Positions 1-13,325 of a stretch of 64,000 nt of DNA are shown here, piece after piece. The position numbers and the translations under genes were made by a program. Position 1 is the stretch's first letter; each line of letters begins with the position of its first letter. Source of the DNA: Thermodesulfobacteriota bacterium (GTDB lineage: Bacteria; Desulfobacterota; Desulfobulbia; Desulfobulbales; SURF-16); contig JBDLIE010000002.1 of the NCBI GenBank assembly GCA_039715015.1, positions 69,422 to 133,421 of the forward strand, written 5' to 3'. Below the pieces are notes generated by a model. The model saw nothing but the letters and a program-made list of their open reading frames with translations. It made no database searches and was not told the DNA's origin.

Positions 1-1
1 C

Positions 2-415
2 ACCCATTTCCCAGATGTCCTCAGTCCTGATTTCAATGGTGACCTTGAGCAACGTTTAATTCAGCTTGAAAAGGTCTGCTGTGACTTTGAAAAAGTTATT
101 CTCATCGGCTCAAGTTTTGGTGGGCTCATGGCCACATGTTTTGCCATTCTCCACCCATCGCGTGTGGTAAAGCTTATTCTTCTTGCCCCGGCATTAAATT
201 TCGAAGATTATCATCCCCCTGCAACCATGATTGCTTCCCCTACCCTTCTTGTTATGGGCGCACAAGATAGTGTCTGCCCGCCTGAGATAGTCGTGCCATT
301 AGCAGATGCAACGTTTAGCAACCTGAAGACCCAGATCTTTGCTGATGATCATCTTTTAAGAAAGGTATTTCCTGAGATGGACTGGCACAAACTGCTTGGC
401 GGCGCGGGGAACTGA
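2..415 (+). CDS. alpha/beta hydrolase (YqiA/YcfP-like), 5'-truncated by the window edge
   Basis: The frame is open from nt 2 and reads ...KVILIGSSFGGLMATCF..., a GxSxG nucleophile elbow. Later GAQDSVC and DDH give candidate catalytic Asp and His. The ORF track start at 128 is internal. Confidence 0.8.
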   Translation, partial: THFPDVLSPDFNGDLEQRLIQLEKVCCDFEKVILIGSSFGGLMATCFAILHPSRVVKLILLAPALNFEDYHPPATMIASPTLLVMGAQDSVCPPEIVVPLADATFSNLKTQIFADDHLLRKVFPEMDWHKLLGGAGN

Positions 416-433
416 AAGTAGCGAGGGAAACTC

Positions 434-1735
434 TTACTCTGATTCGCCATAGCGATACTTGATATCCTGCAGAATAAAATTCTCCAGGGTGTTATCAAAG
501 GAACCTTTCAAACAATCCACTTTTTCCATATTGCCGTCTCTGACCAAAGCCAGATAACGGCACCCCCCAAAACAAAGGGGCAGATATTGGCATGAGCGGC
601 ATTTATTCTCATATTGCCAGTTATCGGTATGATACATAGAAATTTCTTTAACACCATTCCAGATATCACCTATCTCATAGTCGGGACGGCCAATAAGAAC
701 CGGACATTTACACAATGTGCCATCATAATTAATGGTCAAACTGTCATGACGCAGCACCTTGCACGGATTAGGCTTTTCCTCAGGGTAATAGTAGCCGGCT
801 GCAAGTATTTTCTCTCTTAGCATTGACTGTGCCTGGACAAGCCACGTCTCTGTTAAAGTCTCACACCCTTGGCGATAGCTGCTCTCGGCAACATCATCCG
901 TCTGCTGCATAACCGATGCAAAACGCACCTGATGAAGATGGTCCGGGCCAAGGTCTTTCTCTGCCAGGATATCCAGTAACTCGGGAAATCGGTTATAGAT
1001 GTGTTCAGTGAAATTCCCACCAAGGGATAGGGTGATCAGATCAGCACAGGATCGAAGATTTTCCAGAATAACAGCAAAGCTTGGTTTCCCAGAGATATAG
1101 GGGCGAGAATTATTGTGAAGATCAGGTGGGCCGTCCAGGGTTATCTTGGCTCCCACAAGTCCGTATGGGATAAGGCTTTTTACTGTTTCAGAGGTCAACA
1201 GTGAGCCATTAGTGATAAGGGAAAATTCAAACTCTCTCTCTCTCTGGGCCGTCATTTCCTGAAAGCCCTGACAAAGTTGCCGTATCAACGGCACATAGAG
1301 AAGGGGTTCACCGCCATAAAAGGTGATACTGAGCTTATCCCTGTCTTCAAACTGGCCCTCAACATACTTCAGCAGTTGAGCAGCAGTGTCAGCAGACATT
1401 GAAGACTTATCAGCTTTCAAACTCCCCTCATAGCAATAGGAACAGGCAAAATTACAAGCCATCCCTAGAATGATATCGAGATATAGACCTGAGCATCTTT
1501 TATTTATCTGATCAACAAAGGAGAAAACCTCTTGCTGTTCCGCCTCCAGGTCGTCCACAACAAAACCAAGCTCCGCAAGTTGTGGAACTATTTCGCCATC
1601 AAAACTACCTGATTTGAGGGCAACGAAATCAGCATCTTCCACAACAACAAGAGCTCCATTTTTGGTGGAATATAAAACAGTGAGACCTGATGAAGTATCC
1701 AATGGGAAATTTTTCAGGTAATGGGAAAGATGCAT
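434..1735 (-). CDS. radical SAM/SPASM peptide maturase (geopeptide-maturase-like)
   Basis: Has CxxxCxxC (CNFACSYC), FYGGEPLL, ITNG and TLDG motifs. C-terminal SPASM cysteines: CKV...CKCP...CRSCQYLPLCFGGC...C. The ~70-aa N-terminal extension resembles a RiPP recognition element. It lies directly downstream of a short peptide gene. Confidence 0.9.
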   Translation of the reverse strand: MHLSHYLKNFPLDTSSGLTVLYSTKNGALVVVEDADFVALKSGSFDGEIVPQLAELGFVVDDLEAEQQEVFSFVDQINKRCSGLYLDIILGMACNFACSYCYEGSLKADKSSMSADTAAQLLKYVEGQFEDRDKLSITFYGGEPLLYVPLIRQLCQGFQEMTAQREREFEFSLITNGSLLTSETVKSLIPYGLVGAKITLDGPPDLHNNSRPYISGKPSFAVILENLRSCADLITLSLGGNFTEHIYNRFPELLDILAEKDLGPDHLHQVRFASVMQQTDDVAESSYRQGCETLTETWLVQAQSMLREKILAAGYYYPEEKPNPCKVLRHDSLTINYDGTLCKCPVLIGRPDYEIGDIWNGVKEISMYHTDNWQYENKCRSCQYLPLCFGGCRYLALVRDGNMEKVDCLKGSFDNTLENFILQDIKYRYGESE

Positions 1736-1775
1736 AAAGCGAAGAAGGTATCAGTAAAAACATGGTCATCAAACA

Positions 1776-1807
1776 AAACGAGGAGACCTTAAAAGGTCTC
1801 CTCGTTT
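1776..1807 (-). terminator. perfect 15-bp stem-loop between precursor peptide and maturase (terminator/attenuator or mRNA-stabilising hairpin)
   Basis: AAACGAGGAGACCTT-AA-AAGGTCTCCTCGTTT, with a T-rich tail on the minus strand. Confidence 0.8.
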
Positions 1808-1835
1808 CACATAAACTTTTCTAGGATTTCCTGGA

Positions 1836-1931
1836 TCAACCGCTTGGAGCACCGGGAGGGCAGAAAGCTTTAGATTTTGCAATAACCTCTGCCGTTGTTC
1901 CTTGATTTAAAACTATGACCTTCTTTTTCAT
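1836..1931 (-). CDS. putative RiPP precursor peptide, 31 aa (MKKKVIVLNQGTTAEVIAKSKAFCPPGAPSG)
   Basis: Translated by hand from the reverse complement: ATG at 1931, GGAGG RBS 8 nt upstream, TGA at 1836-1838. It is co-oriented with and immediately upstream of the rSAM/SPASM gene and is followed by a strong hairpin. It is below the ORF track size cut-off. Confidence 0.85.
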   Translation of the reverse strand: MKKKVIVLNQGTTAEVIAKSKAFCPPGAPSG

Positions 1932-2016
1932 TCTATCAACCTCCGCGCTAAATTACCTAATCAATGAGTGGATCATTTTCAAATAAACCTATCACACCGT
2001 TACCTAAAAAACAAAT

Positions 2017-3990
2017 TTAAAAATTTAACTTTAAACCCACCTCAGCATGTCTAGGAGAATTCTCAAAACGTTCTTGTACGTACTGGCTTGAATTAAATAG
2101 ATTTCGTACTACACCAAAAAGGGCTGCCCGGAATTTTTCTGTACTAAAAATTTCTTTATTCAAGCTGATATCCCAGAGAAAATTGTTCGTTTCCAGTGGT
2201 TCAGGAAGCTCGGTGAGAAGTTCGCCCCACTTCACATAATGTCCGGAAATCTCTGCCGTGAGAATGTCAGGATGATCATAAATGAAAATAATATTTGCCG
2301 TACTTGAATGATCAGCTTGATCCTCTGGCCAGTCAGTATAAGTATAGGTAAAATTAGCCTGGAGGGAAAGGTGATAAAAAGCCTCAGTGCGCACTTCAAA
2401 TTCAAATCCCTGACGTTGGCTACGATCACCATTCATCTTCCAAATGCTGTAATCAGGGGCAGTTACCCAGGTATTCTCGACGTCATGATGAAACAAGGTT
2501 GTTTTGACGTGAAGATAGGGAATGTCCTTACTCTCTAAACCAATTTGGTAGGTCCAATTTTTTTCTGCGTCCAAATCAGGATTAACCACGGTAGGGCTGT
2601 ATAAGGCATCACCCTCAAGATACCAGACCGGTGGTTTGCGAAAGCCTCGGGAAACGGACGCCCTCAGCAAACTAGCATCACTAAGCTGGTATGTAACACC
2701 GAGTGAAGGGCTTATTAACTCATCGGAGACTGTGGAAATATGATCAAGGCGAACGCCTGGAGTAATTGTCCAATCATCAAATACAAAGGTTCCGTTTAGA
2801 TAGTAGCCTGACACATCCTCAGCGAGGAGATCCATTTCGTAATAATCACCCATGGGGGCAAGGTGTGGATAAAAGAAATCCCAGATGCTGCTATCTCTAT
2901 ACTTCCAAGTCATCTGAACCTCATTACGTTGATAGTCAATACCGGCTACCAAGGCATGTTTTCCCAAAAGATAGTCGAATCGAAGAGCACCACCTGTACT
3001 CTCTTGATCATTAAAAAAATCCTCAATTAGAGTGATGGGTCGATGGGTGGTTTTTTGAAAAGCCCTATAGTCATTATCAAAACGAAAGATCTCAGCATGA
3101 AAATTAAGTCCTTCGGCAATGAGGGCGTCAAAACGAGCACTCATAAATGTATTTTTATCATGAAGTTCCTGGCTATAACCCATGGGCGGGTTAACTGAGT
3201 AAGCCGTAAGCCACTTAACGTGCAAAAATTCCGGTTGTGAATAAAACCCTGAAACATCAAGGGTCATATCGGAGGCGAAGTCAAAATGAAACTTGCCGTA
3301 ACCAGTTGTATTCTTGAAAAATCTATCCTCAAGGAGGCCGTCAGACTCCTGGTTTCCAGCATAGACATAATAACTTAGAGAAGAAACCTTTCCGGCCACT
3401 TCGGCAGTGATATCGTGGGTGTCTTTTTCTCCAAAGGAGGTCACCAAGTCAACCTGCGGAGTTTTTGACTTCCCTGGATCCTTAGTAATAATATTAATAA
3501 CTCCACCCAAAGCTGATCCCCAAGTGGATGAGGCAGCGCCCTTAATCACTTCAATTCTTTTGATAATCCGGACGGGAACCATATTTACCCAGGCGACTTC
3601 TACAGAACTCTTATTCACCCTTACTCCGTCAAGAAGAACCGTCACATGTTCCCAGTCAGATCCCTGAATATAGATATAAGATGCTGTGTTGAAATCAAGC
3701 CCTCCGTAATCCACATAGACCCCGGCCACCCGGTTAAGAACATCGTCAACATTATGGGCGTTCATCCGCTCGATTTCTTCTGCGGTAATGATGGTGACAT
3801 TCTCTGCCACCTGATTGATAGGTTTCCTGATGCGAGTGGCAGCTTCAACAACTTGCGACTCGTCAAAATAAAGATCGAGAAACTCGTCATCACCAGCCAT
3901 CTCCGCTGCTTCCCCGGCAAGGACGGAATTTGGCACAATGAATAAACACGGTACTATTAAGATGAGCCCCAAAAACAAAAACTTGTGCAT
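2017..3990 (-). CDS. TonB-dependent outer-membrane receptor
   Basis: Signal peptide, plug-domain motifs (VTIITAEEIER, VLLDG, RIEVIKGAASSTWG...LGGVINIITK), NPDLDAE and a C-terminal Phe. ATG at 3990 has a GGGGG RBS and is preferred over TTG at 4005. Confidence 0.92.
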   Translation of the reverse strand: MHKFLFLGLILIVPCLFIVPNSVLAGEAAEMAGDDEFLDLYFDESQVVEAATRIRKPINQVAENVTIITAEEIERMNAHNVDDVLNRVAGVYVDYGGLDFNTASYIYIQGSDWEHVTVLLDGVRVNKSSVEVAWVNMVPVRIIKRIEVIKGAASSTWGSALGGVINIITKDPGKSKTPQVDLVTSFGEKDTHDITAEVAGKVSSLSYYVYAGNQESDGLLEDRFFKNTTGYGKFHFDFASDMTLDVSGFYSQPEFLHVKWLTAYSVNPPMGYSQELHDKNTFMSARFDALIAEGLNFHAEIFRFDNDYRAFQKTTHRPITLIEDFFNDQESTGGALRFDYLLGKHALVAGIDYQRNEVQMTWKYRDSSIWDFFYPHLAPMGDYYEMDLLAEDVSGYYLNGTFVFDDWTITPGVRLDHISTVSDELISPSLGVTYQLSDASLLRASVSRGFRKPPVWYLEGDALYSPTVVNPDLDAEKNWTYQIGLESKDIPYLHVKTTLFHHDVENTWVTAPDYSIWKMNGDRSQRQGFEFEVRTEAFYHLSLQANFTYTYTDWPEDQADHSSTANIIFIYDHPDILTAEISGHYVKWGELLTELPEPLETNNFLWDISLNKEIFSTEKFRAALFGVVRNLFNSSQYVQERFENSPRHAEVGLKLNF

Positions 3991-4404
3991 TACATCCCCC
4001 GACAATGCTTTAAAAAAAAATAGCCGCTCTCCTAAAAAAGGAAATTATGGCTCAAAAAACATTTAATTTTTTTAAAAATGTTGCCCTGCAAAAAGGACTT
4101 CCGAAAAACTTTTTCCAAAATATTATATAAAACTTTAGAATCTTTTACCAATTCATTATTGAAACATCTAGTTTTGGACAATCACTCTCTTTTGCAGTTA
4201 GGACACATATTTCATCTCTCAGATTTAAATGAATGAAAGCAACCATTCTTCCTGACAACAAATTGCAATTATTAATGTAAATATTCTTTGAATATACTAA
4301 GGTTAAAAGTATTGGTTTTCCTCTGATTATCAGGAAATCCTCTGAAAAGATTAATTTTTCGTATATTTTTTTGCGGCATCTCTTTTTTAAAACAAGCAAA
4401 CTAC

Positions 4405-5313
4405 ATGCTTAAACACTTCGTCCTGTCTATTTTCCTTATATTCTCGACGGCCTCCTATTCCTATGGCTTCGAGGTGGTTGCTGTGAAGTCCAGCACAGCC
4501 GAACCCTATAGCCTCGCTTTTGAATCCTTCAGCCGCACTTTCACCAGTGCCGTACCTACCCGTGGGCCTAAATCGATAACACAGAACGCGATAATTACCC
4601 GCACCATTAATCAGGATGACACCCCTGACAGACTTGTGCGTCAAATCCGCAAAGAGAATCCTGACCTTCTAATTGCCTTTGGTTCAAAAGCATTACGATT
4701 TACTGCTTCCATCAAAGACATCCCTATTATTTACCTGCTGGTTCCGTCCCCAGACAAAATCATTAGAGATAGGAGCAATGTCACAGGTGTTCTTCTTCAA
4801 CCTGTGGCTGGCCTCGAATTTCGGGCCCTTCGCAAGATAGCCCCCGCTTTAAAAAGAATCGGCGTAGTCTACAACCCTGCCAAAAGCAAGGATCTCGTCA
4901 GGGAGACGATCAGCAACAATAAAGATCTCCATTACATGCTGCGTCCGGTTCAACAGCCTCAAGAGGTGGCCAAACAACTTGACACTCTAGCCTCGGAGGT
5001 CGATCTGGTTTGGATGCCACCCGACAGTACTGTTCTCACGCCTCACACTGAGCAGAGTTTTTACCTTTTTTCTCTGCAAAACGAGGTTCCTCTCCTTGCT
5101 TTTTCAGAGAAATATCTCAAAAAAGGGGCCAGTTTTGCTGTAAGTCTCGACCTCTCCAGCATGGGAGATATGGCGGCAGACCTTGCCCTGCTCATAAAAA
5201 ATGGCGCCAAGGCCGTCAACATCCCACCCATCCGGCCCCAACAGGTAAAACTTAAACAAAACAGCATTATCCTCAACAAGCTTGGTTTCCATATCCAGGA
5301 GGTCGGCCAATGA
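4405..5313 (+). CDS. periplasmic ABC-type substrate-binding-like protein (orphan, no permease or ATPase nearby)
   Basis: Signal peptide and ABC_sub_bind-like motifs (NVTGV, KRIGVVYNP, WMPPDSTV, GA..AVSLD...MG..AA). Overlaps the kinase start (ATGA). Confidence 0.8.
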   Translation: MLKHFVLSIFLIFSTASYSYGFEVVAVKSSTAEPYSLAFESFSRTFTSAVPTRGPKSITQNAIITRTINQDDTPDRLVRQIRKENPDLLIAFGSKALRFTASIKDIPIIYLLVPSPDKIIRDRSNVTGVLLQPVAGLEFRALRKIAPALKRIGVVYNPAKSKDLVRETISNNKDLHYMLRPVQQPQEVAKQLDTLASEVDLVWMPPDSTVLTPHTEQSFYLFSLQNEVPLLAFSEKYLKKGASFAVSLDLSSMGDMAADLALLIKNGAKAVNIPPIRPQQVKLKQNSIILNKLGFHIQEVGQ

Positions 5314-7073
5314 TCTTTGCAAAATTTATCAAACAGGTTCAGGCAAGCTATTCAGCCAAACTCATTTTGATTTTTATTGCCTCTATATGCCTGATGGGTA
5401 CCATTCTTAACTTCACCTTTATCCGTATGCAGCAAGACTCCTACGCGACATACACACGCAACAGTGGTCTTTCCATGTCTCGACTGCTGGCCAAGTCTGT
5501 CCAGATCGACGTTTTCACCGAAAACAAAGAACAGTTAGCCATCCCTATGGACGCCCTTTTAAGCCAGGAAAATATTCTTAAGGTTGAAATATTTACCGAC
5601 AAAGGTGAGTTGCTGGTTTCTCGAGCTTCAAGTGAGAGCTGTGAGATTCCTGACTTAAAAAAAACACTGGGCGATTTGCCGCAAAGCAAATCGTCCTTTA
5701 ATGAGTGGCCCAATTGTTTTTCCTTCATATGGCCTGTTCTGACACTCCCTCAATATAAAAGCGAAGACTCCCTCTACTTTGATGAAGCCAGCGAACTCAC
5801 TCCTGTGGACAATCATCCCCTGGGATACGTTTCCATCATCATGTCGAAACGTCAGTATCAGCAGGACATTCAGCAAATTTTTCTTAAAACCGGCCTCACT
5901 ATTCTTTTCATTTTAGTACTCTTGGTCACCGGCATTCTTCTGCTTTTCAGAAAAATGACTCTGCCGTTAAAGAATCTGATAGGGAAGATACAAAGAGAAC
6001 GAAACATTGGCGAGGTACATGATGACATTGGCCTTCTTGACACCACAGTTACCAGCCTAGTTGACGAACTTGACCGTTCTTTTCAAACCATTAACGATCT
6101 AACCACAGGCCTGGAGGACAAGGTAACAGAACGCACCAAACAGCTTGCCATGGCCAATACTGAATTGACCAACCGTCAGGAGTATCTTGAAGAGTCAAAC
6201 CTAAAACTTGAAAAGGCGATGAAGGAGCTTAAGGAAACAGAAGGCCAACTGATCCAGTCTGAAAAAATGGCGGCATTAGGTCAAGTTGTGGCAGGCGTTG
6301 CCCATGAGATCAACAACAATATCAACTTTATATCCGGGGCACTACCATCGCTGACCCGCGCCCTAAGTGACATTCAAAAACTGACAAAAAAATTTGACGA
6401 GGCCTTTGTCCAGGCGTCCGGGGATGATGCTGAAAAAAAACAGCAGGAAGCAATCGCCCTAAAAAAAGAGCTTGAAGAGGATAATCTCTTCAACTCTCTG
6501 GATCAACTCATGGCAAACATTCGTGAAGGCGTCAACCGGACAACGAGCATCGTTTCTGAACTGCGTACTTTTTCTCGCTCTGACGAGCAGGGCTTCAAAA
6601 AGGTCGATCTCCACGATTCCATTAATTCAACCATCACCTTTCTGAACAAGAAATATCTTACAGATGTTGATATCCACAAAGATTATGGCACTATTCCGCC
6701 GGTAAGTTGCCGACCGGGCCGGATAAATCAGGTTTTTCTCAACATTATGAATAACGCCATACAGGCCATGGGGAAAAAGGGAGGCATCCTGACAATTAGC
6801 ACTTTTCTTAATGGCGACGACGTACATATCCGTTTTACCGACACAGGGGCCGGAATAAACCAAGATACCCTTCCTAAAATTTTCGACCCCTTTTTTACGA
6901 ATAAAGACACAGGTGAAGGATCAGGCATTGGCCTTGCTGTGAGTTACAAAATTATCCAAGAGCACCAAGGCCGGATCGACGTGCAGAGTAAAGAGGATAA
7001 AGGCAGCACCTTTGAAATCGTTCTACCGATGGAACACGTCGATGAGACGATCTCTGAGTCTAAGAACAGTTAA
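5310..7073 (+). CDS. membrane-bound sensor histidine kinase
   Basis: Two TM segments flank a periplasmic domain. H-box QSEKMAALGQVVAGVAHEINN, N box NAIQA, DTGAGI, FDPFFT, GSGIGL. Confidence 0.95.
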   Translation: MIFAKFIKQVQASYSAKLILIFIASICLMGTILNFTFIRMQQDSYATYTRNSGLSMSRLLAKSVQIDVFTENKEQLAIPMDALLSQENILKVEIFTDKGELLVSRASSESCEIPDLKKTLGDLPQSKSSFNEWPNCFSFIWPVLTLPQYKSEDSLYFDEASELTPVDNHPLGYVSIIMSKRQYQQDIQQIFLKTGLTILFILVLLVTGILLLFRKMTLPLKNLIGKIQRERNIGEVHDDIGLLDTTVTSLVDELDRSFQTINDLTTGLEDKVTERTKQLAMANTELTNRQEYLEESNLKLEKAMKELKETEGQLIQSEKMAALGQVVAGVAHEINNNINFISGALPSLTRALSDIQKLTKKFDEAFVQASGDDAEKKQQEAIALKKELEEDNLFNSLDQLMANIREGVNRTTSIVSELRTFSRSDEQGFKKVDLHDSINSTITFLNKKYLTDVDIHKDYGTIPPVSCRPGRINQVFLNIMNNAIQAMGKKGGILTISTFLNGDDVHIRFTDTGAGINQDTLPKIFDPFFTNKDTGEGSGIGLAVSYKIIQEHQGRIDVQSKEDKGSTFEIVLPMEHVDETISESKNS

Positions 7074-7138
7074 AAAATATTTTTTTACTTTAATGAGAGG
7101 TGAAGCACACCTCATTAAACATGTTGCGGGGTAAACTT

Positions 7139-8974
7139 ATGGATAAGCTGAAACTCCTTTATGTAGATGATGAAGAGGTGAATCTTTCCAATTTCAAAAT
7201 GGCCATGAAACGCCATTTTTCGATTATCACAGCACTATCTGCCAAAGAGGCGCTCGACAGCTTTGCCGAACATGACGACATTGCTCTTGTGGTTGCCGAC
7301 CAGAGAATGCCCGGAAAGACCGGTACCGAGCTCCTGGGAGAAATTCGTGAGCTCAATTCTGATACGGTTCGCATTATGCTCACAGCCTATAGCGATCCTG
7401 CAGATATCATGGAGGCCATTAACACCGGTGAGGTATACCATTATCTAACAAAACCATGGAAGGAAGAGATCCTTCTCGACATCCTCAGCAAGGGCTCTGA
7501 AAAATATCGCCTGACCAAGGAAAACAAATCATTAGTTGAGCAACTGACTGTAAAGAATGAAGAACTTAAGCAAGAGTTGCAAACCAGTCGTCTCTTAAAA
7601 GACTCTCTTGTCAGACGTGATCTCATCCTGGCAGCTGTAAATGAGACGTCGCAAAAAATCATCAGCAGCTCCTATTGGCGCAAATTCACAGAACCTCTTA
7701 TTGGGCGCCTAGGGCTTGTTATGGCGGTTTCCCGCGTTCACATATACAGCTTCCAAAAAGATTCTTTTGAGAAGCTTACTGCCAATCAGGAATTTGAATG
7801 GAGCTCTGAGACAGCAGGCGCAGATAATGTTCCGCCTGTGCCCGAAATTTTCTCCTTCCCTGATGCTCAATTGGATCGCTGGCTCTCTCTACTCCAAAAA
7901 GGCGAATCTGTGGTGGACAACACTACGGACCTTCCCTCGCCTGAGACCTCCTTGCTCAATTCTCTAGGAATTATTTCAATAGTCTGCACGCCCATTATGG
8001 TGGAGGACTCTTGCTGGGGCTTTCTCAGTCTTGAAGACTGCAGCACAGAACGGACCTGGCCGGAGCTTGAGGTTGCAGCTATAAAAAGCGCTGCAAGCCT
8101 CATTGGCGAAGCGGTTCACCGGCAAGAAATGAACATCGAACTTTCCGCCAAACAGGACCAGCTGGCCCATGCTGGAAGACTCACCGCCATTGGCGAAATG
8201 GCAAAGGGTATGGCCCATGAAATCAACCTTCCAATGAGCCTAATCAGTCTTGGGGCAGACGAGCTGCATCAATATCTAACCAAGAACATACCAGAATCCC
8301 CCTATATAAAAACAACCAAAGACATAAGCGGCCAGGTTTCAAAGGTGATGCGCATAATCGAACATATGCGTGTATTCTCAACACTGTCCAAAGAAAACAT
8401 CACTGACATCAACCTTTTCTGGACAGTGAACAGCGCTCTCACCTTTTTCCGTGAGCAGTTCAGGGTTTCTCTCATCAAACTACACGAGGAAACCACTGAG
8501 GCTGTATCGTATATCTCAACTGACAACCAGAAGGTTGAGCAGATACTGGTCAACCTTCTGGCCAATGCCCGTTATGCGGTGATAAAAAAATCTGAAGAAA
8601 TTAAAAATTTCCCCATGGAGGTATGGGTCAGACTCTATCAACAAGAACTCACTGATGACATTCTAGAAAAAATTTCTGCTCAAGACAGAAAGGACGATCT
8701 CACAGCCGTTCTTGTTTTAGAAGTGGAAGATAATGGTATCGGTATGTCTGAAGAAACCATAAAACATTGCACAGAACCTTTTTTCTCCTCTAAAACTGTG
8801 GGTGAAGGTACTGGCCTGGGCCTCTCTGTCTCCAATTCCTTAATCAAGGAGCTCGGATTTCATCTTGAGATAGAATCTGCCTTGGGTGAGGGTTCTCTTT
8901 TCCGGCTCACAATCCCAGCCTACGAAGAATACCCAATGCTTCTCGACAACAACCAGGTTCAGTTTAAGGGATAA
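7139..8974 (+). CDS. cytoplasmic hybrid REC-GAF-histidine kinase
   Basis: N-terminal receiver (YVDDE...ADQRMP...MLT...TKPW), GAF-like middle (SIVCTPI...WGFLSLEDC...RTW), H-box AHEIN, and HATPase (DNGIG, GTGLGL). Confidence 0.92.
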   Translation: MDKLKLLYVDDEEVNLSNFKMAMKRHFSIITALSAKEALDSFAEHDDIALVVADQRMPGKTGTELLGEIRELNSDTVRIMLTAYSDPADIMEAINTGEVYHYLTKPWKEEILLDILSKGSEKYRLTKENKSLVEQLTVKNEELKQELQTSRLLKDSLVRRDLILAAVNETSQKIISSSYWRKFTEPLIGRLGLVMAVSRVHIYSFQKDSFEKLTANQEFEWSSETAGADNVPPVPEIFSFPDAQLDRWLSLLQKGESVVDNTTDLPSPETSLLNSLGIISIVCTPIMVEDSCWGFLSLEDCSTERTWPELEVAAIKSAASLIGEAVHRQEMNIELSAKQDQLAHAGRLTAIGEMAKGMAHEINLPMSLISLGADELHQYLTKNIPESPYIKTTKDISGQVSKVMRIIEHMRVFSTLSKENITDINLFWTVNSALTFFREQFRVSLIKLHEETTEAVSYISTDNQKVEQILVNLLANARYAVIKKSEEIKNFPMEVWVRLYQQELTDDILEKISAQDRKDDLTAVLVLEVEDNGIGMSEETIKHCTEPFFSSKTVGEGTGLGLSVSNSLIKELGFHLEIESALGEGSLFRLTIPAYEEYPMLLDNNQVQFKG

Positions 8975-9083
8975 AGCTTGGAAAAAATAGCCGGCAAGAG
9001 AAAAAAAACCTCGCGCTCTCTAACAAACTCTATTAGCATCTTATCATAGGTGCACACTACTCAACTGTAAGGAGCCGCCGCCC

Positions 9084-9467
9084 TTGATTTCAGCAAGAAA
9101 CAATAAAGTCTTGATTGTTGATGACCAGCCACTTAACAGGCTTTTTCTTGCCGACCTTCTCAAGATGCATGAGATCAATCCCACCGAAGCCACCAATGGC
9201 AACGAGGCTGTCCAGCAGTGGCTTAAAAATGATTATGCAGTCATTCTGATGGATATCAAAATGCCAGACCTAAATGGCATTGATGCCACACGGATCATCC
9301 GACAGAAAGAAATGGAACAGGGTTTAGCCAAAACACCGATTATAGCTGTTACCGCTTACGGGACCAAAGAAACCCAGAATGATTGCCGGAATGCCGGCAT
9401 GGATGGCTATATCCCCAAGCCGGTTAATGTATCAGATCTCCTCGAAATGATAGAAAACCTTCATTGA
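9084..9467 (+). CDS. single-domain (CheY-like) response regulator
   Basis: VLIVDD...MDIKMP...IIAVTA...PKP, with no output domain. TTG start follows a AAGGAG RBS. Confidence 0.9.
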   Translation: MISARNNKVLIVDDQPLNRLFLADLLKMHEINPTEATNGNEAVQQWLKNDYAVILMDIKMPDLNGIDATRIIRQKEMEQGLAKTPIIAVTAYGTKETQNDCRNAGMDGYIPKPVNVSDLLEMIENLH

Positions 9468-9603
9468 TTTCTTTCTTCATTTCTTCTTTCCCCCTCCTTT
9501 TTTTGACTCAGCCCATCGTTTCTTGAGCTCTCTCTACATTGAGCCCCAAACAAACAAGGCGCGATTTTTCACAAATTACCACCTAGGCCGGAAGTTAATA
9601 ATT

Positions 9604-10566
9604 TCAGTCGTTAGCTGGAAAATTTTCCGTCACTATACGCACCATATTGCTGCGAGGAAATTCCTTTTTCAAAAGAGACTTCAAGTTCTTTTTAAGTTTC
9701 CCAACCCCAACCTCAAACTCATCCACCGAGAAACCCTTTTCCTTGATTAAAACCCGTTGCTGATCAAGCTTGACCAAGGTCAGAGAGCGGTCACGTTTAT
9801 AGGTCAACAAAACAAGTGATCCTCCCTCATTAAGTTGAGACATTTTCTGGATTACAACAGGCACCACATTAGCAATATCCACCATTATTTCTTCACTCAC
9901 ACTGGTTAATGAATCACGCTCCAAAAGCGCTTGTTCTTCCATCTCAAAATCTGCTGCCATGCTCATTTGCTTTGAAGCTGCATCTTTACGTTTTCTTGGA
10001 GCTACAGACCTTACCTCTGGAGAAGCGGGCATTTCATTTTTCTTTGCCTCTTGCTGAAAGACAAGTGCCGGGGCCGGCATTGGCTCTTCTTCAGTCACCA
10101 AACTTTTCCCTTGCTGCGGCGCTTCAACGATTGCATCTTCACTAGACATAGGCAACTGTGGGGTGTCCTCGGTAATTATAGGAGAAGTTGCCTTATGCTC
10201 CACCGGAGGTGGCGGCGCAAGATTGATGTAGAGGAGAATACTAGCTGCCGCTGCAAGCAACGAACCTGCAGTGGCAAAACTAAGTGCTCGCTTTGCAAGC
10301 CATGGGCCTTTAATGACCTTTCCTGAACCAGCAAAATTTTCCATACTTAAAAGACGCCACTCATCATAGCAGGATTGACATTCTGCCAAATGGGCAAGAC
10401 AATGCTGTCTCTCCACCTCTGAGAGAGAGCCATCAACCAGCAATGCCATCTTGTCAGAAGTCAGACAGTTACCACTTTTAACGTCCTTGCTGGCTGCAAG
10501 CGCCGTCAGGGCTGTGGCCTTATTTGATTCTGTAAAAAGGTTGTCTTGCTTACTCACCAATCCCAC
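9604..10566 (-). CDS. putative zinc-finger (ZAS/zf-HC2) transmembrane anti-sigma factor
   Basis: HxxxCxxC (HLAECQSC), one TM helix, then a Pro/Glu-rich extracytoplasmic region. Located directly downstream of a sigma-like gene. Confidence 0.7.
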   Translation of the reverse strand: MGLVSKQDNLFTESNKATALTALAASKDVKSGNCLTSDKMALLVDGSLSEVERQHCLAHLAECQSCYDEWRLLSMENFAGSGKVIKGPWLAKRALSFATAGSLLAAAASILLYINLAPPPPVEHKATSPIITEDTPQLPMSSEDAIVEAPQQGKSLVTEEEPMPAPALVFQQEAKKNEMPASPEVRSVAPRKRKDAASKQMSMAADFEMEEQALLERDSLTSVSEEIMVDIANVVPVVIQKMSQLNEGGSLVLLTYKRDRSLTLVKLDQQRVLIKEKGFSVDEFEVGVGKLKKNLKSLLKKEFPRSNMVRIVTENFPAND

Positions 10567-10620: not shown

Positions 10621-11478
10621 TCAACATTCTTGGTTTAATAACAACAGTAGTTCTTCCGCCAGCCCTGCATCAGTAAATGTTTTTTTGAGTCGTAATAAGA
10701 GGCGGCGCATCTTACCGTGGGCCTGATGAACTGTCAGTTTAAGGAGCTTGGCGGCCTGGGAAACAGAAAGCTCATCTTGAAAACAGAGCTTCAACAGCAA
10801 CCTCTCCTCAGCGCTCATAGATATCGAAATATCCATTACTCCGCGAAAAGAGTCATTCATGGAAGGGGTAACAGGTTGGTCCTGGAGAAGGTTTTGGAAG
10901 ATGATGGCAAAAAGAATACCCCGCTCCTTTTTTTCCAAGTCTGCCACTTGGCTTTCCTGACCCGGAGAAGGTTCACAGTCCATATCGCCATCGCTGGTAA
11001 GATCTTCCTTACCGCTATATTTCCCGCAGTCGGTTATTTCAGACAGGATACGCGAGGCTGCCTCTTCAGCATCAAAATGGACGTCGGGACCACACGTTTC
11101 CAGGCGGTTTAAAGCATCGGGCAAGGATTGGCGCTCTAGACACAAGAAACGATAGAGAACAAGCCACCAGCCTCCAAGCTTTGTGAGCCAAGAGGGAGGT
11201 CGCAATCGCCCAAATCGACTCCGACTGAAATCCTCAAAGAGGCGGCAGGTCACCGAACCGAGATAGCTCGAAAATCGGGCCCGGCCGGAAAACCCGGCAA
11301 GACGTTTACCATCGCCATCCTGCAATTTCTCCAGGGCATAGACCACAGCCTCCTCAGCCAGGCCAGGATCGTTAAAACGCCTGGCTGCCAAGCGATCAAG
11401 CAAGGCGAGATGGTCATGGATTTTCTCTACAAGTTTTTTCGACACAGACACATATCCAAGCCACAGGGCAACCTTCAT
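10621..11478 (-). CDS. ECF-type sigma-70 factor
   Basis: Region 2-like segment (AEEAVVYALEKL...FSGRARFSSYL...RLFED) and region 4-like HTH (SAEERLLLKLCFQDELSVSQAAKLL). Start position uncertain. Confidence 0.7.
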   Translation of the reverse strand: MKVALWLGYVSVSKKLVEKIHDHLALLDRLAARRFNDPGLAEEAVVYALEKLQDGDGKRLAGFSGRARFSSYLGSVTCRLFEDFSRSRFGRLRPPSWLTKLGGWWLVLYRFLCLERQSLPDALNRLETCGPDVHFDAEEAASRILSEITDCGKYSGKEDLTSDGDMDCEPSPGQESQVADLEKKERGILFAIIFQNLLQDQPVTPSMNDSFRGVMDISISMSAEERLLLKLCFQDELSVSQAAKLLKLTVHQAHGKMRRLLLRLKKTFTDAGLAEELLLLLNQEC

Positions 11479-11624: not shown

Positions 11625-13325
11625 ATGAAAACAAGAAAATATCTGGCCATTCTCTTTCTTCCTCTTGCCTTGGCAGCCTGCCAGTCCGAAAAAACCGCCC
11701 GGCAAGACCTTGTCCAACCCGAGGAGGAAAGAGTAATGCTTGCCCCTGTCCGCACCCCTCATCCCCAGATCCCCGCCCCTGTAGAAATGAAAAAAAACAA
11801 AGAACACCTGCTCAGTGCGGATATGGCAATGCCTGCCTCCACCATGGCTGCACCAGGAAAGACCGCGCATTACGAGATGGGCCGCCAAAAGGCACGGCAC
11901 GAATGGAACAGAGAATCCTACAGCTATAATGAGGAACAAGGTTTTCAGAACGTCCACAACGATCCGCTCTCCACCTTTTCCATCGATGTTGACACAGCAG
12001 CCTACAGTAATATCAGGCGTTTCATTAATCAGGGAAGTATGCCGCCTGTGGGGGCCGTCCGCATCGAAGAGATGCTTAATTATTTCAGCTACAACTACCC
12101 CCAGCCTAGCAAAGGGCCTTTTTCGGTAACCACAGAGGTAGGTCCCTGTCTTTGGGAAACAGATCATAAATTGGTTCGTATCGGCCTTAAGGGCAAGGAT
12201 ATTGAAAAGGGCAATCTGCCCCCTTCAAATCTGGTCTTTCTTATAGATGTCTCAGGCTCCATGCAGGCCGCCAACAAACTGCCTCTGCTCAAAAAATCCA
12301 TGCAGATGCTGGTGAACCAGCTCGGCGAAAAAGATCGGGTGGCAATTGTTGTCTATGCAGGTTGTGACCGGGTGGTGTTGCCACCCACGAGTGGCAATGA
12401 CAAAAAAACCATCATAAAGGCCATTGATAATCTTACGGCAGGGGGATCCACCAATGGTGCTAGTGGTATTATTACCGCCTATAATCTTGCCGAGCGTGTT
12501 TTAATGCCATCCGGCAATAACCGCATCATCCTTGCTTCGGACGGCGACTTTAATGTTGGCGTTACCAGCCGTGGCGAACTTCAAAAGCTTGTGGAGAAAA
12601 AGAGCAAATCAGGGATTTACCTCACCGTCCTAGGATTCGGCATGGGGAACTACCATGATGACACCATGGAGATTCTTGCCGACAAGGGCAATGGCAACTA
12701 TGCCTATATCGATAATCTGATGGAAGCCAAAAAGGTCCTTGTTAAAGAGATGACCGGCACCATGTTCGCCATTGCCAAGGATGTTAAAATCCAGGTGGAG
12801 TTTAACCCGGCTCAGGTGGCGGCATATCGTCTGGTTGGCTACGAAAATAGAATGCTTGCTGATGAAGATTTCAATAACGACAAGAAAGATGCCGGCGAGA
12901 TCGGCGCCGGCCATACCGTGACTGCGCTCTATGAGTTGATCATGGCCGGAGGCAAAGACCTCCCGGCCATCGACCCCTTGAAATACCAACGACCAAGCAG
13001 TGCAAAAATTGCCGCCGCCAATGATTATGGCGATGAACTTCTCACCGTGAAGATACGTTACAAAAAACCAAATAAAAAGACCAGTAACCTGATGAGTGTT
13101 GTGGTCAAGAAAAGTTCAGAGCGTCTGGCTGACACCTCCGGCGACTTCCATTTTGCCTCAGCCGTGGCAGGGTTTGGCATGGTGCTTACTGATTCGGCCC
13201 ATAAGAAGAAGCTGTCCTACGAAACTATCATTGCCTCAGCCCAACATGGTCGAGGCAGAGATATGAACGGCTACCGGGCAGAGTTCGTCCGCCTTGTGGA
13301 AAACAGTGAACTGCTGAACCAATAG
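11625..13325 (+). CDS. VWA-domain lipoprotein, YfbK family
   Basis: Lipobox LAAC, PLSTFSIDVDTAAY, VRIEEMLNYF, MIDAS motif DVSGSM, SDGDFNVG, YRLVGYENR...DAGEIG. Confidence 0.9.
   Translation: MKTRKYLAILFLPLALAACQSEKTARQDLVQPEEERVMLAPVRTPHPQIPAPVEMKKNKEHLLSADMAMPASTMAAPGKTAHYEMGRQKARHEWNRESYSYNEEQGFQNVHNDPLSTFSIDVDTAAYSNIRRFINQGSMPPVGAVRIEEMLNYFSYNYPQPSKGPFSVTTEVGPCLWETDHKLVRIGLKGKDIEKGNLPPSNLVFLIDVSGSMQAANKLPLLKKSMQMLVNQLGEKDRVAIVVYAGCDRVVLPPTSGNDKKTIIKAIDNLTAGGSTNGASGIITAYNLAERVLMPSGNNRIILASDGDFNVGVTSRGELQKLVEKKSKSGIYLTVLGFGMGNYHDDTMEILADKGNGNYAYIDNLMEAKKVLVKEMTGTMFAIAKDVKIQVEFNPAQVAAYRLVGYENRMLADEDFNNDKKDAGEIGAGHTVTALYELIMAGGKDLPAIDPLKYQRPSSAKIAAANDYGDELLTVKIRYKKPNKKTSNLMSVVVKKSSERLADTSGDFHFASAVAGFGMVLTDSAHKKKLSYETIIASAQHGRGRDMNGYRAEFVRLVENSELLNQ

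What the first reader, a model, noticed from the sequence alone, without database searches (positions are those of the whole stretch)
434..9467. Candidate RiPP peptide-signalling circuit: precursor + rSAM/SPASM maturase + TonB receptor, facing a binding-protein/kinase cascade
Seen: the minus-strand arm runs TonB receptor -> 31-aa peptide -> hairpin -> rSAM/SPASM maturase. The plus-strand arm starts from the same ~400-bp AT-rich intergenic region and runs orphan periplasmic binding protein (ATGA-coupled) -> membrane HK -> REC-GAF-HK -> lone receiver. Known: SPASM enzymes with an N-terminal RRE-like extension cross-link small precursor peptides. From memory, the pair resembles the uncharacterised Geobacter-type 'geopeptide' families (TIGR04229 precursor, TIGR04280 maturase); I did not run a search. 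Inference: the modified peptide is released, re-imported across the outer membrane by the TonB receptor, bound by the periplasmic protein and sensed by the kinase. That would be a modified-peptide quorum-sensing-like loop in a Gram-negative anaerobe, rather than a bacteriocin or cofactor pathway. No immunity gene or peptide-dependent enzyme is visible.
Basis: partly seen in the sequence, partly recalled or inferred. Interest (0 to 1): 0.9.

Follow-up and report, generated by a model that had tools for sequence, protein, structure and literature searches.

The report
One-cysteine geopeptide making-and-sensing gene module
This stretch encodes a tiny peptide, the radical-SAM enzyme that modifies it, an outer-membrane import gate, a periplasmic binding protein and a sensor-kinase chain; the set is kept together in many anaerobic bacteria, so the cell probably takes up and senses its own peptide, though nobody has tested this.

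Summary
The maturase passes NCBIfam TIGR04280 (469.5 bits, cut-off 400). The 31-aa precursor fails TIGR04229 but matches a family profile I built.

In 52 loci with such a maturase, profiles find a TonB receptor in 52, a PF04392 binding protein in 43 and a histidine kinase in 42, in three gene orders. No exporter, protease or immunity gene recurs.

In 51 of 52 loci the precursor has a Cys-Cys motif. The window and its four same-genus relatives form a one-Cys subclade, C-x-P-G-x-P.

A complex model supports docking of the binding protein on the kinase's periplasmic domain: score 0.74, best control 0.01. Binding-protein divergence tracks peptide-core divergence best.

My best reading is a self-made modified peptide that is re-imported and sensed. 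That the peptide is the ligand is inferred, not shown. Receptor sets without a maturase also exist.

This scan reported the same module before on other DNA. My searches found no paper on it.

The parts
434..1735 (-). Geopeptide-type radical SAM/SPASM maturase (433 aa) with an N-terminal RRE-like domain
   Evidence: TIGR04280: 469.5 bits against a cut-off of 400, covering 1-428 of 428 positions. Cysteines C94, C98 and C101, and seven C-terminal cysteines (C325, C344, C379, C382, C388, C392, C408), are invariant in 34 sequences. The AlphaFold model has pLDDT 93.1, with three strands then helices in residues 7-80. The best Foldseek matches are CteB 5why/5wgg over 436-460 columns.
1775..1808 (-). 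Terminator/attenuator-like hairpin between the precursor and maturase genes
   Evidence: A 15-bp perfect stem with a 4-nt loop, then UUGUUUGAU. The spacer folds at -29.1 kcal/mol, z -3.5, and 0 of 200 shuffles fold as well. A hairpin of -15 kcal/mol or stronger lies within 90 nt after the precursor stop in 33 of 52 loci, against 4 of 52 single shuffles.
1836..1931 (-). 31-aa precursor peptide: leader motif VIVLNQG, one-Cys core AFCPPGAPSG
   Evidence: GGAGG ribosome-binding site. No TIGR04229 hit. It hits my family HMM at E 2.3e-5, 25.2 bits. The ORF is kept, with the C-x-P-G-x-P core, in 4 same-genus genomes; one of these is cut by its contig start.
2017..4005 (-). TonB-dependent outer-membrane receptor (about 657-662 aa, BtuB-sized), without an N-terminal signalling domain
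   Evidence: Pfam Plug 77.3 bits and TonB_dep_Rec_b-barrel 111.9 bits. No NCBIfam equivalog is reached; the best is TIGR01779 at 133 bits against 599.7. A receptor lies next to the maturase in 52 of 52 loci. TonB and ExbD are present elsewhere in the genome.
4006..4404 (.). AT-rich divergent intergenic region (presumed promoters of both arms)
   Evidence: GC 0.28-0.35. A sigma-70-like TTGGTA-18-TATAAT lies at 4151-4122(-). There is no sigma-54 consensus at 2 mismatches or fewer and no Rfam family. Promoter function is not shown.
4405..5313 (+). Transporter-less periplasmic binding protein (PF04392, type I fold) with a signal peptide
   Evidence: PF04392 at 77.2 bits. The model has pLDDT 93.3. 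The nearest structures are 3lft (L-Trp bound), 6hnj/6hni and 3lkv. It is single-copy in the genome. A binding protein is present in 43 of 52 loci.
5310..7073 (+). Membrane histidine kinase with a periplasmic sCache_4-type sensor domain (residues about 38-192), translationally coupled to the binding protein
   Evidence: Pfam sCache_4, HisKA and HATPase_c. ATGA overlap. The complex model with the binding protein scores 0.74 against a best control of 0.01. The loop 152-157 (EDSLYF) is conserved as [ED]xL[YF]F[DE] in 22 of 26 related kinases.
7100..8974 (+). Cytoplasmic REC-GAF-histidine kinase (phosphorelay intermediate)
   Evidence: Pfam Response_reg, GAF and HATPase_c, with a weak HisKA match. 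It is 71-74% identical in same-genus loci. REC-containing proteins follow the kinase in about 20 loci.
9084..9467 (+). Single-domain response regulator (receiver only, no output domain)
   Evidence: Pfam Response_reg at 99.2 bits. It is kept in same-genus loci at 61-72% identity.

Best explanation
This is a complete copy of the database-named but unstudied 'geopeptide' module, from a one-cysteine subclade. Below, steps are marked as shown here or inferred.

Peptide arm:
1. The minus-strand arm is transcribed from the AT-rich spacer (inferred).
2. It yields the receptor and the 31-aa precursor. The hairpin lets only part of the transcripts reach the maturase gene (inferred).
3. The maturase grips the VIVLxxG leader with its RRE-like domain. 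It uses its radical SAM cluster and two SPASM clusters to cross-link the conserved Cys in the C-x-P-G-x-P core, most likely as a thioether. The enzyme class is shown. The chemistry is inferred from its nearest families: CteB, PapB, QhpD and SCIFF maturases.
4. The product leaves the cell by an unknown route.

Sensing arm:
5. The product is too large for porins, so the dedicated BtuB-sized TonB receptor brings it back across the outer membrane (inferred).
6. In the periplasm the transporter-less PF04392 protein binds it. That protein sits on the sCache-type sensor domain of the kinase. The docking is supported by a model only.
7. The signal passes by phosphorelay through the REC-GAF-kinase to the lone receiver.

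The output is unknown, because no DNA-binding domain lies in the locus.
For: Family:
- TIGR04280 scores 469.5 bits against 400.
- The radical SAM and SPASM cysteines are invariant.
- The model is CteB-like and includes the RRE.

Linkage:
- In 52 loci the profile tally is maturase 52, receptor 52, binding protein 43, kinase 42.
- Six of the nine loci without a binding protein are cut by a contig end.
- Three gene orders occur: divergent arms as here; maturase divergent from receptor-binding protein-kinase; and all genes on one strand.
- No other gene cluster recurs in more than 8 of the 52 loci, apart from antisense shadows.

Precursor:
- An ORF with the hhVLxxG...C(C) pattern precedes the maturase at E < 1e-3 in 52 cases.
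- The one-Cys core is kept in all 5 same-genus loci.
- Three of those keep the whole seven-gene layout.

Parallel sets:
- In four genomes with two sets, each peptide-maturase pair has its own receptor, binding protein and kinase.
- Between the two sets these are 22-54% identical.

Binding protein with kinase:
- The ATGA coupling.
- Complex score 0.74 (runs 0.63, 0.75, 0.74), best of 3 controls 0.01.
- The runs share at least 70% of their contacts, and the partner's pLDDT is at least 72.
- The mark was reached by 116 of 157 solved complexes and 2 of 215 mismatched pairs. These counts hold only roughly, because my own alignments were used.

Co-variation in 37 complete sets:
- Spearman correlation with peptide-core distance is 0.50 for the binding protein, 0.44 for the maturase, 0.43 for the receptor and 0.40 for the kinase.
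- Partial correlation controlling for the maturase is 0.33 (p 0.002) for the binding protein, 0.17 (p 0.022) for the receptor and 0.05 (p 0.28) for the kinase.

Other:
- There is no riboswitch and no BtuB-level match.
- TonB and ExbD are present in the genome.
Against: - No exporter or leader peptidase is conserved in the 52 loci. Release and leader removal have no visible basis.
- Three loci (L014, L017, L092) have 3 kb or more of flank beyond the receptor and no binding protein. L074 has a binding protein but no kinase.
- Of 20 further binding-protein contexts, 10 have a receptor next to the binding protein and none has a TIGR04280-type maturase in the stretch held.
- Three of these are clear receptor-binding protein-kinase sets without a maturase: L113, L114 and L125. 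So the sensing trio is not tied to this peptide alone.
- The solved PF04392 proteins bind single aromatic amino acids, not peptides (PMC10443332 Table 1, passage read).
- The complex model fills the binding protein's inter-lobe cleft with a kinase loop. That argues either for a different sensing mode or for a model artefact.
- The window's locus has no transcription factor, so feedback on the peptide genes is undocumented.
- The Mantel tests ignore shared ancestry. They used stop-to-stop frames and noisy kinase alignments.
- The family HMM was built from peptides that I picked with a pattern requiring CC. The 51-of-52 count therefore leans towards CC.
Confidence: 0.5

Rival explanations
1. The receptor, binding protein and kinase sense an outside ligand that is not the peptide, for example an aromatic compound or a foreign molecule. 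They only switch the peptide-maturase genes on. The peptide is then an output: an antimicrobial, a cofactor-like molecule or a periplasmic factor, not the signal.
For: - Receptor-binding protein-kinase sets exist without a maturase: L114 and L125. L113 has a peptide-like ORF only.
- Tandem receptor-binding protein arrays occur in L116 and L120-L122.
- The solved PF04392 proteins bind L-Trp, L-Tyr and L-Phe.
- No exporter is conserved.
Against: - Each peptide-maturase pair has its own diverged receptor set in the four two-set genomes.
- The precursor gene lies inside the receptor operon in most loci.
- Binding-protein divergence tracks the peptide core even after controlling for the other proteins.
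- No immunity gene or peptide-dependent enzyme recurs.
Confidence: 0.2
2. The modified peptide is a scavenger (metallophore-like) that is secreted, loads a metal or other cargo, and returns through the TonB receptor. The binding protein and kinase report the loaded form. This would be analogous to methanobactin uptake, or to siderophore-induced signalling.
For: - A dedicated TonB receptor and a periplasmic binding protein sit next to a RiPP, as in methanobactin operons (recalled, not tested).
- Vicinal cysteines are present in 51 of 52 precursors.
Against: - The window's subclade keeps only one Cys.
- The nearest enzyme families consume the thiol in a thioether.
- No inner-membrane importer, exporter or metal-handling gene recurs.
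- The binding protein belongs to the amino-acid-type family PF04392.
- No metal-regulator site was looked for.
Confidence: 0.13
3. The TonB-type barrel works outwards and exports the peptide across the outer membrane. The binding protein acts as a periplasmic chaperone, and the kinase monitors the flux.
For: - The precursor gene follows the receptor gene directly.
- No other exporter is conserved.
- A TonB-dependent transporter needed for protein secretion has been reported in Myxococcus (recalled; I read no paper on it).
Against: - The precursor has no signal peptide, so how it would reach the periplasm is unexplained.
- The receptor has an ordinary Plug plus barrel, and its best matches are import receptors.
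Confidence: 0.05
4. The one-Cys precursor marks a decaying system. The genes are adjacent by descent only, and the module no longer works in this genome.
For: - The window's precursor is the only one of 52 without CC.
- The maturase sits on a long, unplaced branch (quick tree).
Against: - All seven ORFs are intact.
- The one-Cys core C-x-P-G-x-P and the leader are kept in 5 of 5 same-genus loci, whose maturases are only 56-61% identical.
- All seven genes are kept in the three loci with enough flank.
- The assembly shows no variant at the codon. This rests on contigs of the probable source run only.
Confidence: 0.04

Closest known systems
NCBIfam 'geopeptide' system: TIGR04229 (precursor) plus TIGR04280 (geopeptide radical SAM maturase, a hypothetical equivalog)
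   Same: The maturase matches TIGR04280 full length above its cut-off. A small precursor lies directly upstream and shares the hhVLxxG leader and a C-terminal Cys core with the family.
   Different: The precursor fails TIGR04229 even at E 10. It has one Cys where 51 of 52 relatives have Cys-Cys. Relatives from the same order reach only sub-threshold scores: 3 of 10 tested hit at all, the best at 21.2 bits against 30. I found no paper on what the family does.
Thioether-forming radical SAM/SPASM RiPP maturases with an RRE: CteB (SCIFF; PDB 5wgg/5why), PapB, QhpD, CefB
   Same: The next-best NCBIfam hits are TIGR04463, CefB, PapB, Clo7bot, QhpD and SCIFF maturases. CteB is the best match in sequence and in fold. 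The layout is RRE-like N-terminus, CX3CX2C, then seven SPASM cysteines.
   Different: All those models score far below their cut-offs, for example PapB at 140 bits against 340. The substrate is a different peptide family. The cross-link itself was not determined here.
Binding-protein-dependent sensor kinases such as LuxP-LuxQ and TorT-TorS (recalled from general knowledge)
   Same: A periplasmic type I binding protein without a transporter is encoded with a membrane kinase, and is predicted to dock on that kinase's periplasmic domain. LuxP appears among the distant fold matches at ranks 37 and 44.
   Different: The binding-protein family (PF04392) and the sensor domain (sCache_4) are different. 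A TonB receptor and a RiPP pair are part of the conserved set. The model places a conserved kinase loop in the ligand cleft. I do not recall that mode for LuxPQ or TorTS, and I did not check it.
Methanobactin operons (RiPP with TonB receptor MbnT and periplasmic binding protein MbnE) and FecA-type TonB-dependent transducers (recalled)
   Same: A ribosomal peptide is encoded with its own TonB receptor and periplasmic binding protein, and uptake is coupled to signalling.
   Different: No MbnB/MbnC-type genes, exporter, inner-membrane importer or sigma/anti-sigma pair recur. The receptor shows only Plug and barrel, with no N-terminal signalling domain. Signalling would run through the binding protein and kinase.
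Peptide pheromone quorum sensing of Gram-positive bacteria (recalled)
   Same: A small, ribosomally made and modified peptide is paired with a histidine kinase. The core is hypervariable behind a conserved leader, and one genome can hold parallel diverged sets.
   Different: The cell here has an outer membrane, so a TonB gate and a periplasmic co-receptor are interposed. No dedicated exporter or protease was found. Density dependence is untested.

Membership tests
TIGR04280 geopeptide radical SAM maturase | Full-length match above the curated cut-off (400 bits) | tested here: met
   469.5 bits, E 1e-140, positions 1-428 of 428. The genome search gives 469.1 bits.
TIGR04280 geopeptide radical SAM maturase | Radical SAM CX3CX2C motif plus SPASM cysteines for two auxiliary clusters | tested here: met
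   C94, C98 and C101, and C325, C344, C379, C382, C388, C392 and C408, are invariant in 34 sequences. Pfam Radical_SAM scores 58 bits. Pfam SPASM scores only 17.8 bits against 21.5.
TIGR04280 geopeptide radical SAM maturase | N-terminal peptide-recognition (RRE-like) domain | tested here: met
   In the model, strands at 7-11, 18-23 and 28-33 are followed by helices at 34-42, 50-55 and 63-80, at pLDDT above 80. Foldseek aligns 436-460 columns with CteB, which includes CteB's N-terminal domain. Peptide binding is not shown.
TIGR04229 geopeptide precursor | Match to the 22-position model above 30 bits | tested here: not met
   No hit at E <= 10 for the peptide or anywhere in the genome.
TIGR04229 geopeptide precursor | Adjacent Cys-Cys motif near the C-terminus (a feature seen in 51 of 52 relatives here; that it defines the family is my reading) | tested here: not met
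   The window has Phe-Cys. The same-genus relatives have Asn-Cys or Gly-Cys.
Geopeptide precursor family as profiled here | Small ORF directly upstream of the maturase with the hhVLxxG leader and a Cys core 7-23 residues from the end | tested here: met
   E 2.3e-5 and 25.2 bits against my HMM; E 8.7e-7 in the smaller search. The HMM was built from CC-bearing peptides picked by a pattern.
Conserved geopeptide module (peptide, maturase, TonB receptor, PF04392 protein, kinase) | All five parts adjacent | tested here: met
   All five are present in the window. The tally in 52 loci is 52, 52, 43 and 42.
Ranthipeptide/sactipeptide class | Cys sulfur to carbon thioether made by the maturase | not testable with these tools
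   Only homology to thioether-forming enzymes is available.
BtuB-type vitamin B12 receptor | Equivalog-level match and a cobalamin riboswitch upstream | tested here: not met
   TIGR01779 scores 133 bits against 599.7, and NF007926 scores 113.8 against 836. No riboswitch lies in 1-10000 at E <= 1.
FecA-type TonB-dependent transducer | N-terminal signalling extension with a sigma/anti-sigma pair | tested here: not met
   Pfam finds only Plug, barrel and OMP_b-brl_3. No sigma/anti-sigma pair recurs.
Binding-protein-dependent two-component sensing (LuxPQ/TorTS type) | Transporter-less binding protein that physically engages the kinase's periplasmic domain | tested here: inconclusive
   No ABC permease or ATPase cluster recurs in the 52 loci. 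The complex model scores 0.74 against a best control of 0.01. That supports binding but does not show it.
ABC-transporter tryptophan-binding protein TrpX (NF041285) | Equivalog-level match and adjacent permease genes | tested here: not met
   51 bits against 390. No permease gene lies in the locus.

The most novel reading that the evidence does not exclude
Bacteria with two membranes run private peptide-pheromone channels. Each channel is built from a radical-SAM-modified peptide, its own TonB gate and a periplasmic co-receptor. The co-receptor stays latched to the kinase through a conserved aromatic loop (EDSLYF here) held in its ligand cleft. The incoming peptide core competes with or reshapes that latch and so switches the kinase. 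The one-Cys subclade would show that a single cross-linked Cys is enough for recognition.
Probability: 0.15. Interest if true: 0.9.

Novelty: new variant of a known kind. Interest (0 to 1): 0.72.

Why it matters
Peptide signals are the rule in Gram-positive bacteria. In bacteria with an outer membrane they are rare, partly because peptides of this size cannot cross that membrane unaided. A module that couples a modified peptide to its own TonB gate, a co-receptor and a kinase would give a general answer to that problem, and it would do so in environmentally important anaerobes (sulfur- and metal-cycling Desulfobulbales and Geobacter-type bacteria).

The system is directly testable. There are five genes, a 31-aa substrate, cultured relatives (for example the Hydrosulfovibrio isolate at L025), and a predicted protein interface with named residues.

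The one-Cys subclade narrows which residue the enzyme must act on. Even if the peptide is not the ligand, the receptor-binding protein-kinase trio is a recurrent outer-membrane-gated sensing unit, and I found no description of it in the papers searched.

Tried and rejected
- **Sigma-54 promoter.** The consensus TGGCAC-N5-TTGCW at 2 mismatches or fewer gives 50 matches in the window against 40 expected. None lies in the spacers 1735-2017 or 4005-4405.
- **Simple terminator scan.** It did not list the 1775-1808 hairpin. Direct folding did find it.
- **Rfam scan of 1-10000 at E <= 1.** It returned only three chance-level matches to eukaryote-type families.
- **Sequencing runs.** No RNA holder is listed. 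Only DNA contigs of the probable source run (X1) and a 7% holder (X2) were found. X1 reproduces the assembly with no other letters at the precursor, and X2 laid nothing. This gives no evidence on expression and no independent check of the Phe codon.
- **PF04392 across the phylum.** It matches in 193 of 401 genomes. That is too broad to inform on the module, so I replaced it with a subfamily profile.
- **Strict terminator flag in my first hairpin script.** It marked 10 of 52 loci, because the stems absorbed the T-tracts. I replaced it with an energy comparison against shuffles.
- **Careful maximum-likelihood tree.** It did not finish in the time allowed. Only the quick tree is used.
- **Papers.** 'geopeptide' 0. 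TIGR04280/TIGR04229 0. A five-term combination 0. SPASM + Geobacter + precursor peptide + TonB 0. Ranthipeptide + TonB-dependent gave 8 papers, of which I saw only the listing, and none is on this module by title. PF04392/COG2984 gave 8, of which I read passages of one.
- **Earlier notes.** The look-ups by place and by sequence returned nothing.

Full report
**Observation**

Minus strand:
- A Plug plus beta-barrel TonB-dependent receptor at 2017-4005. The likelier start is the ATG at 3990.
- A 31-aa ORF at 1836-1931 with a GGAGG ribosome-binding site.
- A perfect 15-bp hairpin at 1775-1808 followed by a U-rich tail. The spacer folds at -29.1 kcal/mol, z -3.5, and 0 of 200 shuffles fold as well.
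- A 433-aa radical SAM protein at 434-1735.

Plus strand, starting after a 399-bp spacer of GC 0.28-0.35:
- A PF04392 binding protein at 4405-5313.
- A kinase with two membrane spans, sCache_4, HisKA and HATPase at 5310-7073. Its start overlaps the binding protein's stop as ATGA.
- A REC-GAF-kinase at 7100-8974.
- A lone receiver at 9084-9467.

**Identity of the enzyme and the peptide**

The enzyme:
- It matches NCBIfam TIGR04280, 'geopeptide radical SAM maturase', over its whole length: 469.5 bits against a cut-off of 400.
- In an alignment of 34 family members, the CX3CX2C cysteines (C94, C98, C101) and seven C-terminal cysteines are invariant.
- An AlphaFold model (pLDDT 93.1) shows three strands followed by helices in residues 7-80. 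That is the layout of a peptide-recognition (RRE) domain.
- Foldseek ranks the thioether-forming CteB first, over 436-460 columns. anSME, SuiB, TigE and ChlB follow.

The peptide:
- It does not match the precursor model TIGR04229 at E <= 10, either alone or in a search of the whole genome.
- Peptides from ten related loci fare little better. Three of ten hit at all, the best at 21.2 bits against a cut-off of 30.
- I therefore built my own profile from peptides found upstream of related maturases.
- The window's peptide hits that profile at E 2.3e-5. So it belongs to the family by leader and core position, but it is divergent.

**Conservation of the neighbourhood**

I collected 26 loci by similarity to the maturase. 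All are from Desulfobulbales-type MAGs and one isolate, at 38-46% identity. I added 25 more around TIGR04280 hits above the cut-off, taken from a sample of 401 genomes of the phylum in which 26 genomes have such a hit.

With profiles built here, the tally over these 51 loci plus the window is:

| Part | Loci with it, of 52 |
|---|---|
| Maturase | 52 |
| TonB receptor | 52 |
| PF04392 binding protein | 43 |
| Histidine kinase | 42 |

Exceptions:
- Of the nine loci without a binding protein, six are cut by a contig end next to the receptor.
- The other three (L014, L017, L092) have 3 kb or more of flank and none.
- L074 has a binding protein followed by an aconitase gene instead of a kinase.

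Three gene orders occur:
- Divergent arms as in the window.
- The maturase and peptide divergent from a receptor-binding protein-kinase operon. This is the Geobacter-type clade, whose kinases are of the HAMP type.
- All genes on one strand.

Clustering all ORFs of 90 aa or more finds no other family in more than 8 of the 52 loci, apart from antisense shadows of the four genes. So there is no conserved exporter, peptidase, immunity gene or peptide-dependent enzyme.

**The precursor family and the one-Cys subclade**

- Fifty-two ORFs beside maturases hit my profile at E < 1e-3. Of these, 51 carry Cys-Cys 7-23 residues from the C-terminus, and the window's carries Phe-Cys. The profile was trained on CC-bearing peptides, so this count leans towards CC.
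- A search of 41 relatives' genomes found four same-genus maturases at 56-61% identity.
- Their precursors are also one-Cys, ending in ANCAPGSPK, ANCAPGTPK and ANCKPGTPAMD. The fourth is cut by its contig start and shows GCKPGAPS.
- The window ends in AFCPPGAPSG.
- The single Cys is therefore a lineage trait with a conserved C-x-P-G-x-P core, not an assembly error. It is the second Cys of the pair that is retained.
- In the three same-genus loci with enough flank, the whole seven-gene layout is kept:

| Protein | Identity to the window |
|---|---|
| Maturase | 58-61% |
| Receptor | 64-68% |
| Binding protein | 50-53% |
| Kinase | 59-61% |
| REC-GAF-kinase | 71-74% |
| Receiver | 61-72% |

- On a quick tree, the class of peptide tail follows the maturase clade. 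The window sits on a long branch without a supported sister (the careful search did not finish).
- A hairpin of -15 kcal/mol or stronger follows the precursor stop in 33 of 52 loci, against 4 of 52 single shuffles.

**The sensing arm**

The binding protein:
- It is single-copy in the genome.
- It has a type I periplasmic binding fold (pLDDT 93.3).
- Its nearest solved relatives are 3lft (L-Trp bound), CD0873 (6hnj/6hni) and 3lkv.
- Solved members of PF04392 bind L-Trp, L-Tyr and L-Phe (PMC10443332, Table 1; passage read).

The complex model:
- I modelled residues 22-302 of the binding protein with the kinase's periplasmic residues 38-192.
- It scored 0.74 (runs 0.63, 0.75, 0.74) against 0.01 for the best of three controls.
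- The runs share at least 70% of their contacts, and the partner's pLDDT is at least 72.
- The mark was reached by 116 of 157 solved complexes and 2 of 215 mismatched pairs. These counts hold only roughly, because my own alignments were used.
- The model supports binding. It does not show it.

The interface:
- It joins the loop ends that line the binding protein's inter-lobe cleft (residues 29-34, 93-95, 112-115, 131, 206-214, 233-236 and 248) to kinase residues 146-163.
- The tightest contacts are at 152-157 (EDSLYF).
- That loop is kept as [ED]xL[YF]F[DE] in 22 of 26 related kinases.
- It is absent from the Geobacter-type HAMP kinases.
- I do not know whether this is a real latch or the predictor placing a flexible aromatic loop in an aromatic-binding pocket.

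**Tests of the peptide-sensor link**

Genomes with two sets:
- In four such genomes, each peptide-maturase pair has its own receptor, binding protein and kinase.
- Between the sets the identities are 49-54% (maturase), 34-54% (receptor), 24-48% (binding protein) and 22-45% (kinase).
- That fits parallel private channels.

Co-variation in 37 complete sets:

| Protein | Spearman with peptide-core distance | Partial, controlling for the maturase |
|---|---|---|
| Binding protein | 0.50 | 0.33 (Mantel p 0.002) |
| Maturase | 0.44 | - |
| Receptor | 0.43 | 0.17 (p 0.022) |
| Kinase | 0.40 | 0.05 (p 0.28) |

This is the pattern expected if the binding protein reads the core. But Mantel tests ignore shared ancestry, the frames were stop-to-stop, and the kinase alignment mixes architectures.

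Against an exclusive link:
- A subfamily profile of the binding protein hits 52 of 401 genomes.
- Of 20 further contexts fetched, 10 have a receptor next to the binding protein. None shows a TIGR04280-type maturase in the stretch held. Several are cut by contig ends.
- L114 (sigma-54 activator, receptor, binding protein, kinase) and L125 (receptor, binding protein, hybrid kinase) are clear sets without a maturase.
- L113 has a geopeptide-like ORF with Cys-Ile-Cys but no maturase nearby.

**Other checks**

- No riboswitch lies in 1-10000, and the BtuB models score far below their cut-offs.
- No sigma-54 consensus lies in the spacers.
- A sigma-70-like site lies at 4151-4122(-). It is a consensus match only.
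- The genome has TonB and ExbD.
- The flanking genes are not part of the conserved set. They are an alpha/beta hydrolase at 2-415, a zf-HC2 protein at 9604-10566 and a vWA/YfbK protein at 11625-13325.

**Mechanism and rivals**

My best reading, at about 0.5, is a make, release, re-import and sense loop. The peptide is cross-linked at its Cys, gated back through the TonB receptor, and read by a binding protein docked on the kinase, which feeds a phosphorelay.

What is shown: the enzyme family, the precursor family, and the conserved linkage. What is supported by a model only: the docking of the binding protein on the kinase. What is inferred: the chemistry, the release, the ligand identity and the output.

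The rivals are:
- A foreign ligand, with the peptide as output only (0.2).
- A scavenger-type peptide (0.13).
- Outward transport through the barrel (0.05).
- A decaying system (0.04).

**Novelty**

- The maturase family has a database name. This scan has reported the same module on other genomes, with 8 of 17 notes shown. One of them reports a one-Cys version in Geobacter sulfurreducens, which I did not check.
- My literature searches found nothing on the family or the module.
- New here are:
  - the one-Cys subclade with its conserved core;
  - the modelled interface between the binding protein and the kinase;
  - the co-variation ranking;
  - the explicit count of receptor sets without a maturase.
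- I class the finding as a new variant of known kinds, namely RiPP maturation, TonB uptake and binding-protein-dependent kinases.

Noticed in passing
L081:5019-7100, L082:9920-12100 (also G211): In three genomes the maturase ORF runs on for about 270 further residues (open frames of 711-735 aa). Pfam finds nothing in the one extension scanned, that of L081.
   Followed up: partly
L016:6339-10904; L019:3471-7705: L016 carries two peptide-maturase pairs from different clades (tails of 8 and 14 residues) behind a single receptor-binding protein-kinase set. L019 has two receptors in tandem before one peptide.
   Followed up: partly
L113:10929-11045: A geopeptide-like ORF with Cys-Ile-Cys lies divergent from a receptor-binding protein-PAS kinase set, with no maturase within 6 kb. 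That genome holds two complete sets elsewhere.
   Followed up: partly
L116, L120, L121, L122: Tandem arrays of TonB receptor plus PF04392 binding-protein genes, up to three binding proteins in a row. My labelling found no kinase and no maturase there.
   Followed up: no
L128 about 2790-3087; L130 about 1100-1500: In two same-genus relatives the precursor and maturase genes are separated by about 300-400 nt, against 100 nt in the window. The extra stretch gives similar six-frame translations in both, so it may be a small inserted repeat.
   Followed up: no
window 9604-10566(-), 10621-11478(-), 11625-13325(+): Downstream of the lone receiver lie a 320-aa protein with a zf-HC2 (anti-sigma-type) motif, a 285-aa ORF without a Pfam hit, and a vWA/YfbK protein. 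None recurs with the module.
   Followed up: partly
L114:4558-5934: A REC-sigma-54 activator-HTH regulator directly precedes a receptor-binding protein-kinase set that has no maturase. The window's locus has no such regulator and no sigma-54 consensus.
   Followed up: partly
L094:9795-9944; L098:2976-3158: Maturases below the TIGR04280 cut-off (312.8 and 296.4 bits) still have Cys-Cys precursors and a TonB receptor nearby. No binding protein lies in the stretch held.
   Followed up: no
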